This document shows positions 17,845-35,289 of a DNA stretch of 64,000 bases, piece by piece. Source of the DNA: a virus. Position 1 is the stretch's first letter, and every line of letters starts with the position of its first letter. The stretch spans positions 64,001 through 128,000 of the IMG/VR virus record IMGVR_UViG_3300046779_001412; one strand, written 5' to 3'. The translations under genes were made by a program, and so were the position numbers. The notes under the pieces were generated by a model, which was given only the letters and a program-made list of their open reading frames with translations, was not told the DNA's origin and searched no databases.

Positions 17845-18045
17845 TTACATACCGCGTGGAGAGTAATGTTGGATATAGATACAGCGTGCGCTGACTTTGT
17901 AGCCATCTGTGTACCAAGTGGCGCTGACACGAGCACGTTCACGCTGGCAGTCTTCGTAGTTATGTTGTGGGGCCTGTATAATACCTTTGCTCTGTGTTTG
18001 ACCATAGGGCTGTGCAAGATACAAACTGATAACAAGAATCCACAT
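17845..18045 (-). CDS. small hypothetical protein
   Basis: Follows TAAATA; hydrophobic N-terminus. Confidence 0.5.
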   Translation of the reverse strand: MWILVISLYLAQPYGQTQSKGIIQAPQHNYEDCQRERARVSATWYTDGYKVSARCIYIQHYSPRGM

Positions 18046-18062
18046 GTTGATATTTATTAATG

Positions 18063-18085
18063 AAAAAGCCCGCCGAAGCGGGCCT
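18063..18085 (-). terminator. terminator after tmRNA
   Basis: GCCCGC-TTCG-GCGGGC plus U5. Confidence 0.85.
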
Positions 18086-18385
18086 ACTATTTTGGGTGAC
18101 AAGGCATAGTTGCCTCGGAGATTAGGCTGCTAGAGCGAAAATCTCGTCGTTAGCTGCGTTTGCAGTTATCATTTTTCGCTGATTACGTCAGTCGACTCTC
18201 GTGTTGTCCACTCGCCTACTCTTGACCCTGTCGAAACCTTGACTGGCCCATCAGAAACATACTTCGTCCTGCAGTACGGTCCTTTTCACAAAGAGTCGCA
18301 CGGTCTGCAAATATGTTTCTGGTGGACCAGGTGGGAGTCGAACCCACGTCCAGAACCCTTTTTGGGTCGCTTCATACAACAATAC
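18086..18385 (-). ncRNA. ssrA: circularly permuted (two-piece) tmRNA
   Basis: T arm and CTGGTCC-ACCA (3' end 18320) come first, then a spacer, then 5' GGGCCAG (18249) with G3:U70; tag ANAANDEIFALAA* at 18163..18122; outer ends approximate. Confidence 0.92.
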
Positions 18386-18396
18386 AATTATTTATT

Positions 18397-18981
18397 TTAT
18401 AGAACTTGTTGAATTTTGTCAAGTATGATATTGACCACTTGACTGCTGAGTACAACCTCGTAATGATTGAACGGCATTTCAATGATCTCAAAATCATCAC
18501 GATAAAGCATACTCTGTAAAGTAACCACACCATCATTGGGTTCTTTGATCCAGGGACTTTGACCCACTGTGGTTACAATCTGAGTCCAGTTTGGCGGTGA
18601 CGCAATCTTTCTACTGTCCTGCATTGGCGCACTCATGGTACCTATGTCTTTCATTAGTTTATTGAAAGGCAAAAAGTACTTGGCAAAATCTGCTTGTTCA
18701 CTGCCACCATAGGGTGTGCTTAGACTTACGCCACCTCGAGTGGTTTCGCGATAGTGATCCGCGAGAAACAAACTATAAATGCCACCAAGACTGTGACTTA
18801 TAAAGAACAATCTTTCTGCATCATCTAGCCGGCCCATCATGTGCGCTAGATTATGAGCAAAGCCATTTTCGCTGCGATACTCCAGCATGATGTCGGGTTC
18901 TTCGTAGTGATCCCGCACGAACTGACGAATGTAGCTAAAACTCTCCGCAGTGGCGCTGGCACCATGTATGTAAACAATCAT
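18397..18981 (-). CDS. alpha/beta hydrolase (esterase/lipase-like)
   Basis: YIHG, SHSLGG, NDGVV, catalytic His. Confidence 0.85.
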   Translation of the reverse strand: MIVYIHGASATAESFSYIRQFVRDHYEEPDIMLEYRSENGFAHNLAHMMGRLDDAERLFFISHSLGGIYSLFLADHYRETTRGGVSLSTPYGGSEQADFAKYFLPFNKLMKDIGTMSAPMQDSRKIASPPNWTQIVTTVGQSPWIKEPNDGVVTLQSMLYRDDFEIIEMPFNHYEVVLSSQVVNIILDKIQQVL

Positions 18982-33435: not shown

Positions 33436-33510
33436 TGGCGGTCCCAAGGGGTAACGATCCCCTTCTTTCAGCGTGACAGGCTGATGTGCGTCCATGAACA
33501 CTTTAGAACC
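33436..33510 (-). tRNA. tRNA-Asp(GTC)
   Basis: Loop CTGTCAC; T loop ATCGTTA. Confidence 0.88.
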
Positions 33511-33522
33511 AGATTTTATAGG

Positions 33523-33660
33523 TAAGCGCCGAGAGAATGTCAATTTAGACGTCCTGCGCTAACAGTGTCAAAGCCGAGACCAGTTATATTAGGACTCGTC
33601 CCCGGCCGGGAGAGCCCGAATAGTGTGTGCGTCCACACACGATACCTGTATCGACGCTTA
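33523..33660 (-). ncRNA. candidate structured ncRNA
   Basis: Closing stem TAAGCGTCGA/TCGGCGCTTA; internal GTGTGTG/CACACAC hairpin. Confidence 0.5.
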
Positions 33661-33678
33661 ACTATAAAATCTAATAAA

Positions 33679-33829: not shown

Positions 33830-33971
33830 TCCAGTGACGCTGGAACGTTCTTTATGGTAGTTGGTCGCTACGCCAACTTTTGCTTTCACAAGGATACCTT
33901 TACAGGTTTCGCATTATAGGTTATTTCAGCGCACAGCGAATTTCTTCACTAAACCCAAACCTTGCTACATT

Positions 33972-34036
33972 ACCATATTGAAACACACTATGCCACGCTC
34001 TGAACCTGGACTCTTAGTAATGTGTTTTAATATGGT
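33972..34036 (-). repeat. constant-stem hairpin, copy A (tRNA-Glu trailer)
   Basis: ACCATATTAAAACACAT...AGTGTGTTTCAATATGGT. Confidence 0.8.
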
Positions 34037-34107
34037 ACACGGTAGGGGAATCGAACCCCTCTTCCATCCGTGAAAGGGATGTGTCCTAACCGATAGACGA
34101 ACCGTGC
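34033..34107 (-). tRNA. tRNA-Glu(TTC)
   Basis: Loop CTTTCAC, CCA. Confidence 0.93.
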
Positions 34108-34109
34108 AT

Positions 34110-34476
34110 AAAATCTTGAAGGTTCCTATAAAGCCCATCGTCACCTACAACCATTGGGTAGTTTCCTACCATCTGATCTAATGCTAACAAGGAACTGACT
34201 GTTACATGATGCTGAAGTCATATTACTGCATCAAACCCTTGCTGAACCCTTGCGGGACGATTCGCACTTGATCGTTTTACTCAAAATATTGAATCAGCTA
34301 CTTGTTTTCCATGCAAGCCCTGAAACCGAGTTGTTACCCTGTCCATCCCTTTTATTCTGTGTCTGTGTGCAGAGGGATACTGCCTATCAGAGTCTGGGTT
34401 ACCCCGCTAACGGTTTTCTGCCACCGGATCTCTATCGCTAATCAAACGCTACTTTCAGGAAAGTAGTAACCGGAAC
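34110..34476 (-). ncRNA. candidate large structured ncRNA(s)
   Basis: No credible ORF; three GNRA-capped hairpins on the minus strand. Confidence 0.5.
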
Positions 34477-34553
34477 TGGTTGCGGGAAACAGGAATCGAA
34501 CCTGATGTCTTTGGCTTATGAGACCAACGAGTAAACCGTTTCTCCCTCCCGCC
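34477..34553 (-). tRNA. tRNA-Met(CAT), initiator-like
   Basis: Loop CTCATAA; 1:72 mismatch with A72/A73. Confidence 0.85.
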
Positions 34554-34572
34554 GCTGTATTGTATTTTGTCT

Positions 34573-34601
34573 ATTATAACAAAAAGAATTTTATTGGTCA
34601 A
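34573..34601 (-). promoter_or_regulatory. sigma70-type promoter
   Basis: TTGACC-17-TATAAT. Confidence 0.8.
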
Positions 34602-34676
34602 CCATATAGAAACACACTATCCTAGATAACCTCTTTGGGACGGACTTTAACCGTTCGAAATGTGTTTTTATATGGT
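34601..34676 (-). repeat. constant-stem hairpin, copy B (tRNA-Lys trailer)
   Basis: ACCATATAAAAACACAT...AGTGTGTTTCTATATGGT. Confidence 0.8.
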
Positions 34677-34749
34677 AGGTGCGGTGAGACTTGAACTCAC
34701 AACTTATCGGTTAAAAGCCGATTACTCTAGCCAGTTGAGTTACGCACCC
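34673..34749 (-). tRNA. tRNA-Lys(TTT)
   Basis: Loop CTTTTAA, CCA. Confidence 0.95.
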
Positions 34750-34781
34750 TTCATCTTGCCACTATCCATAACAGGATCTCC

Positions 34782-35006
34782 TTATTTGTTTTTTTGAAAG
34801 TACTCTTCAGCCAGTGCATCTTCTGCTAGTTCTCTAGCACGACGCTGTTCTTGCGTTTCTTCTGTTTCTAATTGTTCATTCATTTGTTTAATGTTTGACA
34901 CAATATGTTCTTTGCTGCTTACTTCACCACGTAACTTAGCCAATTCTCGTTCGTATCTGGCCACAAGACCTGGTGTTACGTGTTTTTTTATCCATTCTGT
35001 AGTCAT
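34782..35006 (-). CDS. hypothetical coiled-coil protein
   Basis: AGGAG RBS. Confidence 0.65.
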   Translation of the reverse strand: MTTEWIKKHVTPGLVARYERELAKLRGEVSSKEHIVSNIKQMNEQLETEETQEQRRARELAEDALAEEYFQKNK

Positions 35007-35043
35007 AATTAATCTCCTGCTAGATGGGATTCTTGGATTCTAA

Positions 35044-35115
35044 ACCATATTGAAACACACTACTCTCTTTGTGGTCGCCGCCGCGGAACGGCATCGCAAT
35101 GTGTTTCAATATGGT
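35044..35115 (-). repeat. constant-stem hairpin, copy C (directly after a promoter)
   Basis: ACCATATTGAAACACAT...AGTGTGTTTCAATATGGT. Confidence 0.8.
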
Positions 35116-35127
35116 CCCAATATTGAT

Positions 35128-35156
35128 ATTGTAAGACAATCACAAATATTGGTCAA
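35128..35156 (-). promoter_or_regulatory. sigma70-type promoter
   Basis: TTGACC-17-TACAAT. Confidence 0.7.
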
Positions 35157-35289
35157 CCATATGTTGGGATCAACACCCCAACCAGGAGTCTTACCATCTG
35201 CGTTGCCGCCACAGATTTCATGTGTCCTGTCCGCCCGTTTGTGATTTTTAATGAATCACTGGTCCTCGTTACCTTAAACATCTTGACAA

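What the first reader, a model, noticed from the sequence alone, without database searches (positions are those of the whole stretch)
33972..35115. Repeated constant-stem, variable-loop hairpins that pair with tRNA CCA ends
Seen: three copies (33972-34036, 34601-34676, 35044-35115) share a stem of about 17-19 bp, ACCATATWRAAACACAT/AGTGTGTTTCWATATGGT, with a compensatory T-A/A-T change in copy B. The 27-38 nt loops are unrelated except for AAGAG in each. In copies A and B the first ACCA is the 3' end of tRNA-Glu and tRNA-Lys, so the trailer folds over the CCA. Copy C follows its own promoter with no tRNA. The tmRNA spacer has a related stem. Inference: a processing signal (RNase III-like or phage nuclease), a guard for immature 3' ends, or a scaffold releasing small RNAs with variable guide/antisense loops (loop C is notably GC-rich).
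Basis: partly seen in the sequence, partly recalled or inferred. Interest (0 to 1): 0.72.

Follow-up and report, generated by a model that had tools for sequence, protein, structure and literature searches.

The report
Constant-stem hairpins in phage tRNA array
Three hairpins at the head of this giant lake phage's tRNA gene row belong to a large, apparently undescribed RNA family with one nearly fixed stem and freely varying contents, which most likely marks where the long tRNA transcript is cut.

Summary
Three hairpins (33972-34036, 34601-34676, 35044-35115) lie on the minus strand, the strand of all 23 tRNAs. They share a 19-22 bp stem, and A and B start exactly on the ACCA of tRNA-Glu and tRNA-Lys. 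The stem is not local: an exact-arm scan hit at least 119 uncultured viral contigs, always inside one-strand tRNA arrays. Of 242 stems, 129 start on a tRNA's discriminator-CCA and 57 end inside the next tRNA's 5' end. Stem pairs covary. G.U pairs outnumber A.C 254 to 16 on the tRNA strand, apart from one conserved central mismatch, so it acts as RNA. The enclosed part runs from 4 to about 250 nt, is often swapped between phages, and is sometimes tRNA-like. The intervening sequence of the phage's permuted tmRNA has a weakly related stem at the same place. No Rfam family, cultured phage or paper matched. Best reading (0.5): an RNase III-type processing stalk or spacer, excised during tRNA end maturation. 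This is unproven, because no RNA data exist. No phage-encoded RNase III, dsRBD, Ro60 or integrase was found. Two earlier notes of this scan (e1-5700479, e1-5994491) describe the same kind of element on other genomes.

The parts
33972..34036 (-). Hairpin A: 19-bp constant stem with a 27-nt loop. Its first four bases are the ACCA of tRNA-Glu.
   Evidence: z -4.2; R1 59.9 bits.
34601..34676 (-). Hairpin B: 19-bp constant stem with a 38-nt loop. Its first four bases are the ACCA of tRNA-Lys(UUU), and its last base is the first T of the next promoter's -35 hexamer.
   Evidence: (R1 63.6 bits).
35044..35115 (-). Hairpin C: fully paired 22-bp stem with an inner G+C-rich hairpin. It lies about 5 nt (my estimate from the -10 hexamer) from the predicted transcript start, in the 5' leader of a 74-aa ORF.
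   Evidence: z -7.6; R1 60.4 bits.
34033..34107 (-). tRNA-Glu(UUC), whose discriminator-CCA is stem positions 1-4 of hairpin A.
34673..34749 (-). tRNA-Lys(UUU), whose discriminator-CCA is stem positions 1-4 of hairpin B. This is the commonest upstream partner in relatives (80 of 129).
33963..33971 (-). Nine bases after hairpin A that match the start of the tRNA-Met genes abutting this hairpin in relatives. They look like a relic of a lost downstream tRNA.
   Evidence: downstream strings of the window-like locus L013 against L011, L017, L036; reading.
34573..34601 (-). Sigma-70-like promoter (TTGACC-17-TATAAT, 11 of 12, TG extension) between hairpin B and tRNA-Met.
34481..34552 (-). tRNA-Met(CAU) downstream of hairpin B. 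In relatives this tRNA type starts inside the last bases of the stem.
35128..35156 (-). Sigma-70-like promoter (TTGACC-17-TACAAT, 10 of 12) that puts hairpin C at the 5' end of its transcript. It is preceded by a partial copy of the 3' arm.
   Evidence: (D12).
34782..35006 (-). 74-aa coiled-coil ORF downstream of hairpin C, with no confident Pfam family.
18250..18323 (-). Intervening sequence of the permuted tmRNA: a hairpin with a weakly related, shorter stem. It lies between the ACCA of the acceptor piece and the 5' end of the coding piece.
   Evidence: (19.5 bits, E 0.029).

Best explanation
The three hairpins are members of a large phage RNA family defined by a nearly constant 19-bp closing stem. 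They are transcribed as part of the tRNA operon. The stem most likely works as a processing stalk. It is a two-turn, A-U-rich double helix with one conserved central mismatch, placed exactly between the CCA end of one stable RNA and the 5' end of the next. It would be cut by a double-strand-specific endonuclease, most likely the host's RNase III. The remnants would then be removed by RNase P on the downstream side and by 3' exonucleases that stop at CCA on the upstream side. This would separate neighbouring tRNAs and release whatever RNA the stem encloses. In the window that content is short and may have no function of its own. Shown here: the structure, the strand, the registration with tRNA ends, the distribution and the cargo diversity. 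Inferred: that the stem is cleaved, by which enzyme, and where.
For: (1) It acts as RNA on the tRNA strand. In 89 of 89 exact-arm copies that can be oriented by the position-17 U.G, the orientation equals the strand of the locus's tRNAs (36+34 beside a tRNA, plus 19 read from the rows). In 203 unique stems, G.U/U.G outnumber A.C/C.A 254 to 16 outside position 9. Position 8 covaries (AU 39, UA 20, GC 9) and so does position 19. Looser copies show double changes in the 'constant' part. (2) Registration. Of 242 stems, 129 have an ARAGORN tRNA upstream, and in all 129 the stem's first base is the discriminator. Fifty-seven have a downstream tRNA starting 2 (50) or 1 (7) bases inside the 3' arm. 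(3) Helix form. Positions 4-7 and 10-12 are almost always A-U or U-A, and position 9 is unpaired in 109 of 203. E. coli RNase III substrates typically span two helical turns, internal loops can limit cleavage to one strand, and G-C pairs act as antideterminants in the proximal box (PMC1540722: abstract, introduction and part of the figure legends read). (4) The stem alone suffices. Three loci have 4-6 nt loops, and an X3 contig has copy B with 5 letters in place of the loop. (5) Same topology as a sequence known to be excised. The tmRNA intervening sequence lies between ACCA and the next 5' end and has a weakly related stem. Such sequences are absent from mature tmRNA and are cut out by tRNA processing enzymes (PMC11915505, passages read). 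(6) Long-cargo copies enclose real structured RNAs: 33 of 56 pairs are compensatory in 6 sequences. In the loci printed, these copies follow a shared boxA-like leader, as rRNA stalks do (the resemblance to boxA is recalled). (7) In two complete 352-kb genomes all hits lie in one stretch of 10 kb (304.9-314.7 kb) or 4 kb (124.2-128.1 kb), holding the tRNA-array loci L060 and L070.
Against: No RNA ends are known, and no listed run holding the region is on record as RNA, so cleavage is pure inference. Neither RNase III (PF14622) nor a dsRBD (PF00035) is encoded in the own record or in four or five relatives, two of them complete. The host is unknown. Host RNase III has only weak sequence preferences, so it does not obviously explain why the stem's sequence, and not just its pairing, is kept. 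Arms are about 94% identical while the adjoining tRNA-Lys bodies are about 70%, though the arm figure is inflated because loci were found by their arms. The proximal and distal box rules could not be applied because the cleavage site is unknown and the figures of PMC1540722 are not held. Where a tRNA abuts the 3' arm, the basal pairs compete with that tRNA's acceptor stem.
Confidence: 0.5

Rival explanations
1. The hairpins are stable small RNAs in their own right. The constant stem is a handle for an unidentified phage or host protein, and the variable interior is the working part, for example decoys for tRNA-targeting defence nucleases, regulators or tRNA mimics. tRNA processing only serves to release them.
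For: The stem's sequence, not only its pairing, is conserved across phages whose tRNA-Lys genes are only about 70% alike. Twenty-nine of 203 unique cargos carry a T-arm-like hairpin, against 1.5 in shuffles and 1 on the opposite strand, and 21 of these abut the 3' arm as in a tRNA. Multi-arm folds are predicted. A 215-250-nt cargo family covaries. Loops turn over fast: identity is 51% against 49% for shuffles, even beside similar tRNAs. Most copies sit next to tRNA-Lys(UUU), which I recall is a common target of anticodon nucleases; this was not tested.
Against: Cargo is dispensable. Short loops are barely more structured than shuffles (mean z -0.5). No partner was found: Ro60/TROVE is absent, dsRBD is absent, and no ORF family occurs in more than 24 of 119 loci. 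The DUF2828/DUF7788 protein is in only 1 of 5 genomes. The window's three loops have no target-like match in the own record.
Confidence: 0.2
2. The stem is an uncleaved protective hairpin. It guards the 3' end of the upstream tRNA, or the 5' end of an mRNA as in copy C, against exonucleases or 5'-end-dependent decay until other enzymes trim it.
For: The stem covers the CCA exactly. Copy C lies about 5 nt from a predicted transcript start (the start is my estimate). Hairpins at RNA 3' ends can protect against 3'-5' exonucleases (PMC1540722, introduction).
Against: A stable hairpin on the CCA would also block the trimming that makes the tRNA usable, so an endonuclease is still needed. A guard needs no fixed sequence and no conserved central mismatch.
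Confidence: 0.1
3. The constant arms act at the DNA level, as short portable homologies or recognition sites at which tRNA and small-RNA modules are exchanged between co-infecting phages. The RNA hairpin is then a by-product.
For: The same loop family follows different tRNAs in different phages: loop A after Glu here, after Lys in L036 and after Tyr in L112. Loops are replaced rather than diverged. DNA contigs of other runs break or rejoin at the arms, for example 34018 to 35098 with 9 shared letters. Homing endonuclease genes sit in the arrays (HNH in 18 loci).
Against: The excess of G.U over A.C on the transcribed strand and the compensatory changes show selection for RNA pairing. Orientation is never reversed. 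No tyrosine recombinase is present. Shuffling is an expected side effect of any repeated 19-mer. At 85% likeness the joints in metagenome contigs may come from related phages rather than from recombination events.
Confidence: 0.1
4. The hairpin is a transcription signal: a terminator, pause site or antitermination site for the long untranslated operon.
For: Long untranslated operons need protection from Rho. The element recurs along the array.
Against: The stem is A-U-rich with no U tract, and no terminator-like site was called on the minus strand at the hairpins. Downstream tRNAs start inside the stem with no promoter, so termination there would silence them. In relatives a separate boxA-like leader is already present. 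Loops, the usual protein-binding part of nut-type sites, are not conserved.
Confidence: 0.05

Closest known systems
Phage T7 RNase III processing signals (R1.1 and relatives) and the RNase III stalks flanking 16S/23S rRNA
   Same: They are hairpins or stalks of about two helical turns, lying between cistrons of a polycistronic transcript on the sense strand. Internal non-Watson-Crick features at the centre can limit cleavage to one strand. I recall, without having checked, that several sites in one phage resemble each other. The features of RNase III substrates are taken from PMC1540722 (abstract, introduction and part of the figure legends read).
   Different: Here the stem sequence is nearly fixed across at least 119 contigs of diverged phages, while the interior varies from 4 to about 250 nt. 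The stem begins exactly on a tRNA's discriminator-CCA and often ends inside the next tRNA. Cleavage has not been shown.
Intervening sequence of permuted (two-piece) tmRNA genes
   Same: It occupies the same position, between an encoded CCA 3' end and the next RNase P-type 5' end. It is removed by tRNA processing enzymes and is absent from the mature RNA (PMC11915505, passages read). This phage's own tmRNA intervening sequence has a weakly related stem.
   Different: The tmRNA stem is shorter and only weakly similar (19.5 bits). The family described here sits between separate genes, not within one.
Bacterial Y RNAs (YrlA) bound by Ro60/Rsr
   Same: The concept is similar: a conserved closing stem plus a module that mimics tRNA with T- and D-like arms, also found in phages (PMC4201824, abstract and passages read).
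   Different: No TROVE protein is present. The GNCGAAN0-1G motif that the paper names is absent from the constant stem. Here the T-arm abuts the 3' arm, so the stem stands in for the acceptor stem, whereas in YrlA the closed stem-loop between T and D does. Most members here have no tRNA-like part at all.
Integron attC sites
   Same: They also have conserved paired ends with a fixed unpaired position and a variable terminal structure of very different lengths, all in one orientation. These features are recalled, not tested.
   Different: No integrase is present. Both flanks of a given loop vary, which fits homologous rather than cassette-type exchange. The interior holds sense-strand RNA motifs.

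Membership tests
RNase III processing signal (T7 R1.1 type / rRNA stalk) | Double helix of about two turns | tested here: met
   The stems have 19 pairs (A, B) or 22 pairs (C). The 19-pair helix is 95.7% paired in 69 sequences.
RNase III processing signal (T7 R1.1 type / rRNA stalk) | Lies between cistrons of one transcript, on the sense strand | tested here: met
   89 of 89 orientable copies are on the tRNA strand. 129 of 242 start on an upstream tRNA's CCA and 57 end in the next tRNA.
RNase III processing signal (T7 R1.1 type / rRNA stalk) | No inhibitory G-C pairs in the proximal and distal boxes; internal loop or mismatch at the cleavage site | tested here: inconclusive
   Positions 4-7 and 10-12 are almost all A-U, and position 9 is unpaired in 109 of 203. 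The box positions depend on an unknown cleavage site, and the figures that define them are not held.
RNase III processing signal (T7 R1.1 type / rRNA stalk) | Cleaved by RNase III | not testable with these tools
   No listed run holding the region is on record as RNA. No phage RNase III gene was found.
tmRNA-type intervening sequence | Lies between an encoded CCA end and the next 5' end made by RNase P | tested here: met
   This holds for A and B on the CCA side and in relatives on both sides. In the window the downstream tRNA after A is lost, and the one after B lies 48 nt on, behind a promoter.
tmRNA-type intervening sequence | Absent from the mature RNAs | not testable with these tools
   No RNA data.
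Y RNA / YrlA | Ro60 (TROVE) protein encoded with it | tested here: not met
   PF05731 was not found in the own record or in 5 relatives, 2 of them complete.
Y RNA / YrlA | Conserved Ro-binding motif in the closing stem (GNCGAAN0-1G, as named in PMC4201824) | tested here: not met
   The consensus stem of alignment A1 contains no such motif.
Integron attC | Tyrosine recombinase (integrase) present | tested here: not met
   PF00589 was not found in G000-G004.
Intrinsic terminator | G+C-rich stem followed by a U run | tested here: not met
   No terminator-like site was called on the minus strand at the hairpins. The stem is A-U-rich.
Any Rfam 15 family | Match at the gathering score | tested here: not met
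   None was found at the gathering score. At the E-value threshold only chance-level miRNA models at E 0.68 or more touch hairpin C.
Genome-wide promoter/stem-loop cassettes of T4-type phages (PeSL; recalled) | Scattered through variable regions of the genome, flanking ORFs | tested here: not met
   In two complete 352-kb genomes all model hits lie in one stretch of 4-10 kb holding the tRNA-array locus.

The most novel reading that the evidence does not exclude
The constant stem is a universal adaptor. It would let these phages express and mature a swappable library of small RNAs from their tRNA operon, including tRNA-like molecules with a 19-bp 'acceptor' stem. The stem would be read by an unknown protein and the cargo would act as decoys or regulators in the conflict over tRNAs (the link to tRNA-Lys is striking). 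That would make it a natural, modular small-RNA platform, not merely a cutting mark.
Probability: 0.2. Interest if true: 0.85.

Novelty: new variant of a known kind. Interest (0 to 1): 0.6.

Why it matters
Giant phages with 20-40 tRNA genes must turn 10-kb untranslated transcripts into working RNAs, and how they do so is largely unknown. This element is a compact, testable handle on that process. It is a fixed 19-bp helix locked onto tRNA ends, found in at least 119 viral contigs and in lake metagenome runs of 8 studies. It also marks the borders of many undescribed structured RNAs in these arrays, among them tRNA-like molecules and a covarying 215-250-nt RNA. A covariance model of the stem therefore doubles as a finder for new phage RNAs. 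If the stem proves to be a sequence-specific handle rather than a generic RNase III site, it would point to an unknown RNA-protein system and could serve as an RNA expression scaffold.

Tried and rejected
Rfam gave no family for the hairpins and none for a 233-nt cargo RNA.

Cultured phages: blastn of the 2.1-kb region found only tRNA matches. The 76-nt hairpin found only chance hits at E 0.6 or more.

Bacterial and archaeal genomes: 4 stretches on 3 contigs of three MAGs, with record titles Planktophila, a gammaproteobacterium and Polynucleobacter. These are too few and too fragmentary to name a host.

RNA evidence: no RNA holder was listed, so expression and RNA ends could not be examined.

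Partner proteins were sought and not found: RNase III, TROVE, dsrm and Phage_integrase. DUF7788 was in 1 of 5 records. No ORF family was present in more than 24 of 119 loci.

A boxA-like motif was sought in the window: 0 matches.

Guide/antisense idea: the loops have no match beyond chance in the own record.

Unbiased sampling through the neighbouring flap endonuclease gene: among the best 80 of more than 600 relatives, only the four at 90-94% identity have hairpins. The rest have few or no tRNAs in the DNA held, so absence there is uninformative.

Five paper searches found no description of the element. Supplements are closed and were not seen. The proximal/distal box test could not be done because figure sequences are not held.

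The 373-nt ORF-free stretch 34108-34480 folds no better than shuffles (z -0.46).
Full report
WHAT IS THERE. All 23 tRNA genes and the tmRNA gene of the window are on the minus strand (Rfam agrees). Read on that strand, the three elements run 5'-ACCAUAU..AAACACAUU / loop / AGUGUGUUU..AUAUGGU-3', at 34036-33972 (A), 34676-34601 (B) and 35115-35044 (C). The 16-nt arm pattern has six exact matches in the window, which are the six arms. The own 136,488-bp virus record, estimated 39% complete, has no further copy. As RNA the minus strand folds to -23.8, -22.1 and -37.2 kcal/mol (z -4.2, -2.2, -7.6). The ACCA that ends tRNA-Glu and tRNA-Lys forms the first four stem bases of A and B. Hairpin B is followed at once by a near-consensus promoter (34601-34573, 11 of 12) and then by tRNA-Met. 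Hairpin C follows a promoter-like site (35156-35128, 10 of 12) and precedes a 74-aa ORF. Nine bases after A match the start of the tRNA-Met genes that abut this hairpin in relatives, so a downstream tRNA seems to have been lost there. I did not test it, but the promoter-like site at 35686-35658 fits, and it puts the three hairpins at the head of the array.

IT IS A LARGE FAMILY. Every one of these loci carries a tRNA array on a single strand. A covariance model (R1) built from 69 hairpins gave 495 matches, counting both strands, in the window plus 99 loci. A looser search allowing up to 2 mismatches per arm found 242 stems, 203 of them unique. In two complete 352-kb genomes all model hits fall in one stretch of 10 kb and 4 kb respectively, and each stretch holds the tRNA-array locus of that genome. 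Cultured phages lack the element. The nearest cultured relatives of the neighbouring flap endonuclease are PA5oct-like and EJP2-like jumbo phages at about 50% identity. Among 185,579 species' genomes the pattern occurs on only 3 contigs of three MAGs, so it is a phage element and not a host repeat. DNA of this region is held by 20 runs of 8 studies, labelled freshwater or lake water apart from one coded organism label.

IT ACTS AS RNA ON THE tRNA STRAND. The two arms differ systematically. On the tRNA strand position 17 is U.G and position 9 is A.C or C.A. All 89 exact-arm copies that can be oriented by position 17 point the same way as the tRNAs. In 69 aligned hairpins position 8 is always paired but varies (AU 39, UA 20, GC 9, GU 1), and position 19 also covaries. 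The covariation score exceeds all 500 shuffles and all slid structures, although 14 of the 19 pairs were fixed by the search pattern and say nothing. In the 203 unique stems, G.U/U.G pairs outnumber A.C/C.A 254 to 16 outside position 9, which is what RNA pairing on this strand predicts. Looser copies show double compensatory changes at positions 2 and 3. Position 9, at the centre of the helix, is the exception: it is unpaired in 109 of 203, with 89 A.C or C.A and no G.U.

REGISTRATION WITH tRNA ENDS. Of the 242 stems, 129 have an ARAGORN tRNA upstream, and in all 129 the stem's first base is the discriminator. The tRNAs are Lys-UUU 80, Glu 14, Gln 7 and Tyr 6, with the rest made up of Leu, Ala, Ile, Thr, Arg, Gly and Phe. 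Fifty-seven have a downstream tRNA beginning 2 (50) or 1 (7) bases inside the 3' arm, mostly Met-CAU (38 of all downstream tRNAs) and His (13). Several copies counted as having no upstream tRNA follow tRNA-like sequences that ARAGORN did not call. The basal pairs also covary where no tRNA constrains them.

THE INTERIOR. The part between the arms runs from 4-6 nt (three loci) through the common 27-45 nt to about 250 nt. Twenty-nine of 203 unique interiors contain a T-arm-like hairpin, against 1.5 in shuffles and 1 on the other strand, and 21 of them abut the 3' arm as in a tRNA. Predicted folds are cloverleaf-like. A 215-250-nt cargo family has 33 of 56 predicted pairs kept through changes on both sides in six sequences and has no Rfam match. 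In the loci printed it follows a shared leader motif and a small hairpin; from memory these resemble the boxA antitermination leader of rRNA operons, which I did not test. Short loops are only slightly more structured than shuffles (mean z -0.5). AAGAG is not a family feature (8 of 85 against 3.9 expected). The window's loops have no match beyond chance elsewhere in the own record.

Loops turn over much faster than their surroundings. In 72 distinct tRNA-Lys-plus-hairpin units the tRNA bodies are 70% identical on average, the arms 94% (inflated by how the loci were found) and the loops 51%, equal to shuffled loops at 49%. The same loop family follows different tRNAs in different phages. DNA contigs from four other runs break or rejoin at the arms, and one carries copy B with a 5-letter loop. 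At 85% likeness these contigs may come from related phages.

MECHANISM. The best-supported reading is a processing stalk. It is a two-turn, A-U-rich helix with a central mismatch, placed between a CCA end and the next 5' end. This matches what is described for E. coli RNase III substrates: two helical turns, internal loops that restrict cleavage to one strand, and G-C pairs as antideterminants (PMC1540722; abstract, introduction and part of the figure legends read). A cut near the centre would leave a short trailer on the upstream tRNA for exonucleases that stop at CCA and a short leader on the downstream tRNA for RNase P; these steps are general knowledge and inference.

The phage's own permuted tmRNA gives a parallel. 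Its intervening sequence lies between the ACCA of the acceptor piece and the 5' end of the coding piece and forms a weakly related, shorter stem (likewise in L010). Such sequences are absent from mature tmRNA and are removed by tRNA processing enzymes (PMC11915505, passages read).

Three things count against the reading. No RNA ends are available. No phage RNase III or dsRBD protein exists in the records searched. Host RNase III does not obviously explain conservation of the stem's sequence. That last point keeps alive the reading that the stem is a handle for a specific, still unknown partner and that the cargos are working RNAs. I found no such partner: TROVE, integrase and dsrm are absent, and no ORF family is common to the loci.

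COMPARISON AND NOVELTY. The element works most like T7-type RNase III sites, rRNA stalks and tmRNA intervening sequences, but membership cannot be claimed without cleavage data. It is not a Y RNA (no Ro60, no Ro-binding motif), not an attC site (no integrase), not a terminator and not a genome-wide promoter/stem-loop cassette. It matches no Rfam 15 family, and five full-text searches found no description. Two earlier notes of this scan on other genomes (e1-5700479, e1-5994491) describe the same kind of element and reach the same reading. They are AI notes and not independent evidence; I reached my reading before seeing them. I took from them the pointer to PMC1540722 and then read that paper myself.

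VERDICT. The feature is real, widespread and apparently undescribed. It is most likely a processing stalk (0.5). It may also be, or be instead, the constant handle of a modular phage small-RNA family (0.2).

Noticed in passing
window 33511-33672 (minus strand): A different long stalk, 22-nt arms that are 91% complementary, encloses a 118-nt structured RNA directly before tRNA-Asp. The fold is -70.6 kcal/mol, z -7.8. In contigs of runs X3 and X7 the whole unit (33505-33677) is replaced by 14 letters, so it is a presence/absence module. No Rfam match at the gathering score.
   Followed up: partly
window 18031-18436 (minus strand): Phage-encoded circularly permuted tmRNA (Rfam beta_tmRNA 135.5 bits, tmRNA_permuted 125.6 bits) with tag peptide ANAANDEIFALAA. 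Its betaproteobacterial type hints at the host group.
   Followed up: partly
L031:13141-13373, L047:5919-6136, L060:1217-1436, L061:1427-1640, L070:4431-4673, L122:86-336 (also L033:824-1057): A 215-250-nt structured RNA family enclosed by a variant of the constant stem. 33 of 56 predicted pairs show compensatory changes in six sequences, and there is no Rfam match. In the loci printed it follows a shared 12-nt leader motif plus a small hairpin that I recall as resembling rRNA-operon boxA. No copy of that motif is in the window.
   Followed up: partly
L061:407-872 (minus strand): A GOLLD RNA (Rfam RF02032, 219.9 bits) lies in the same tRNA island as the hairpins in a related phage.
   Followed up: no
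e.g. L062:3001-3114; L010, L114 and L054 (oriented coordinates as printed): These are tRNA-like RNAs of 100-130 nt in which the constant 19-bp stem takes the place of the acceptor stem. A T-arm abuts the 3' arm, some have a D-arm-like hairpin, and none has a CCA end. ARAGORN does not call them.
   Followed up: partly
related loci (e.g. L118:6610-8022, L087:2799-3026, L031:11566-12123): Genes are embedded in the tRNA arrays of relatives: a 471-aa DUF2828+DUF7788 protein (13 of 119 loci), a 76-aa RNA polymerase Rpb6/omega-like protein (18 loci) and HNH endonucleases (18 loci).
   Followed up: partly
window 34108-34480 (minus strand): A 373-nt stretch between tRNA-Met and tRNA-Glu has no minus-strand ORF of 40 aa or more. 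It folds no better than shuffles (z -0.46), and its role is unknown.
   Followed up: partly
window 35150-35163 and 34595-34608: The end of the 3' arm (ATATGGT) runs straight into the -35 hexamer TTGACC at two promoters. At the promoter before copy C only this arm fragment remains, which suggests that a hairpin-plus-promoter unit was duplicated or decayed.
   Followed up: no
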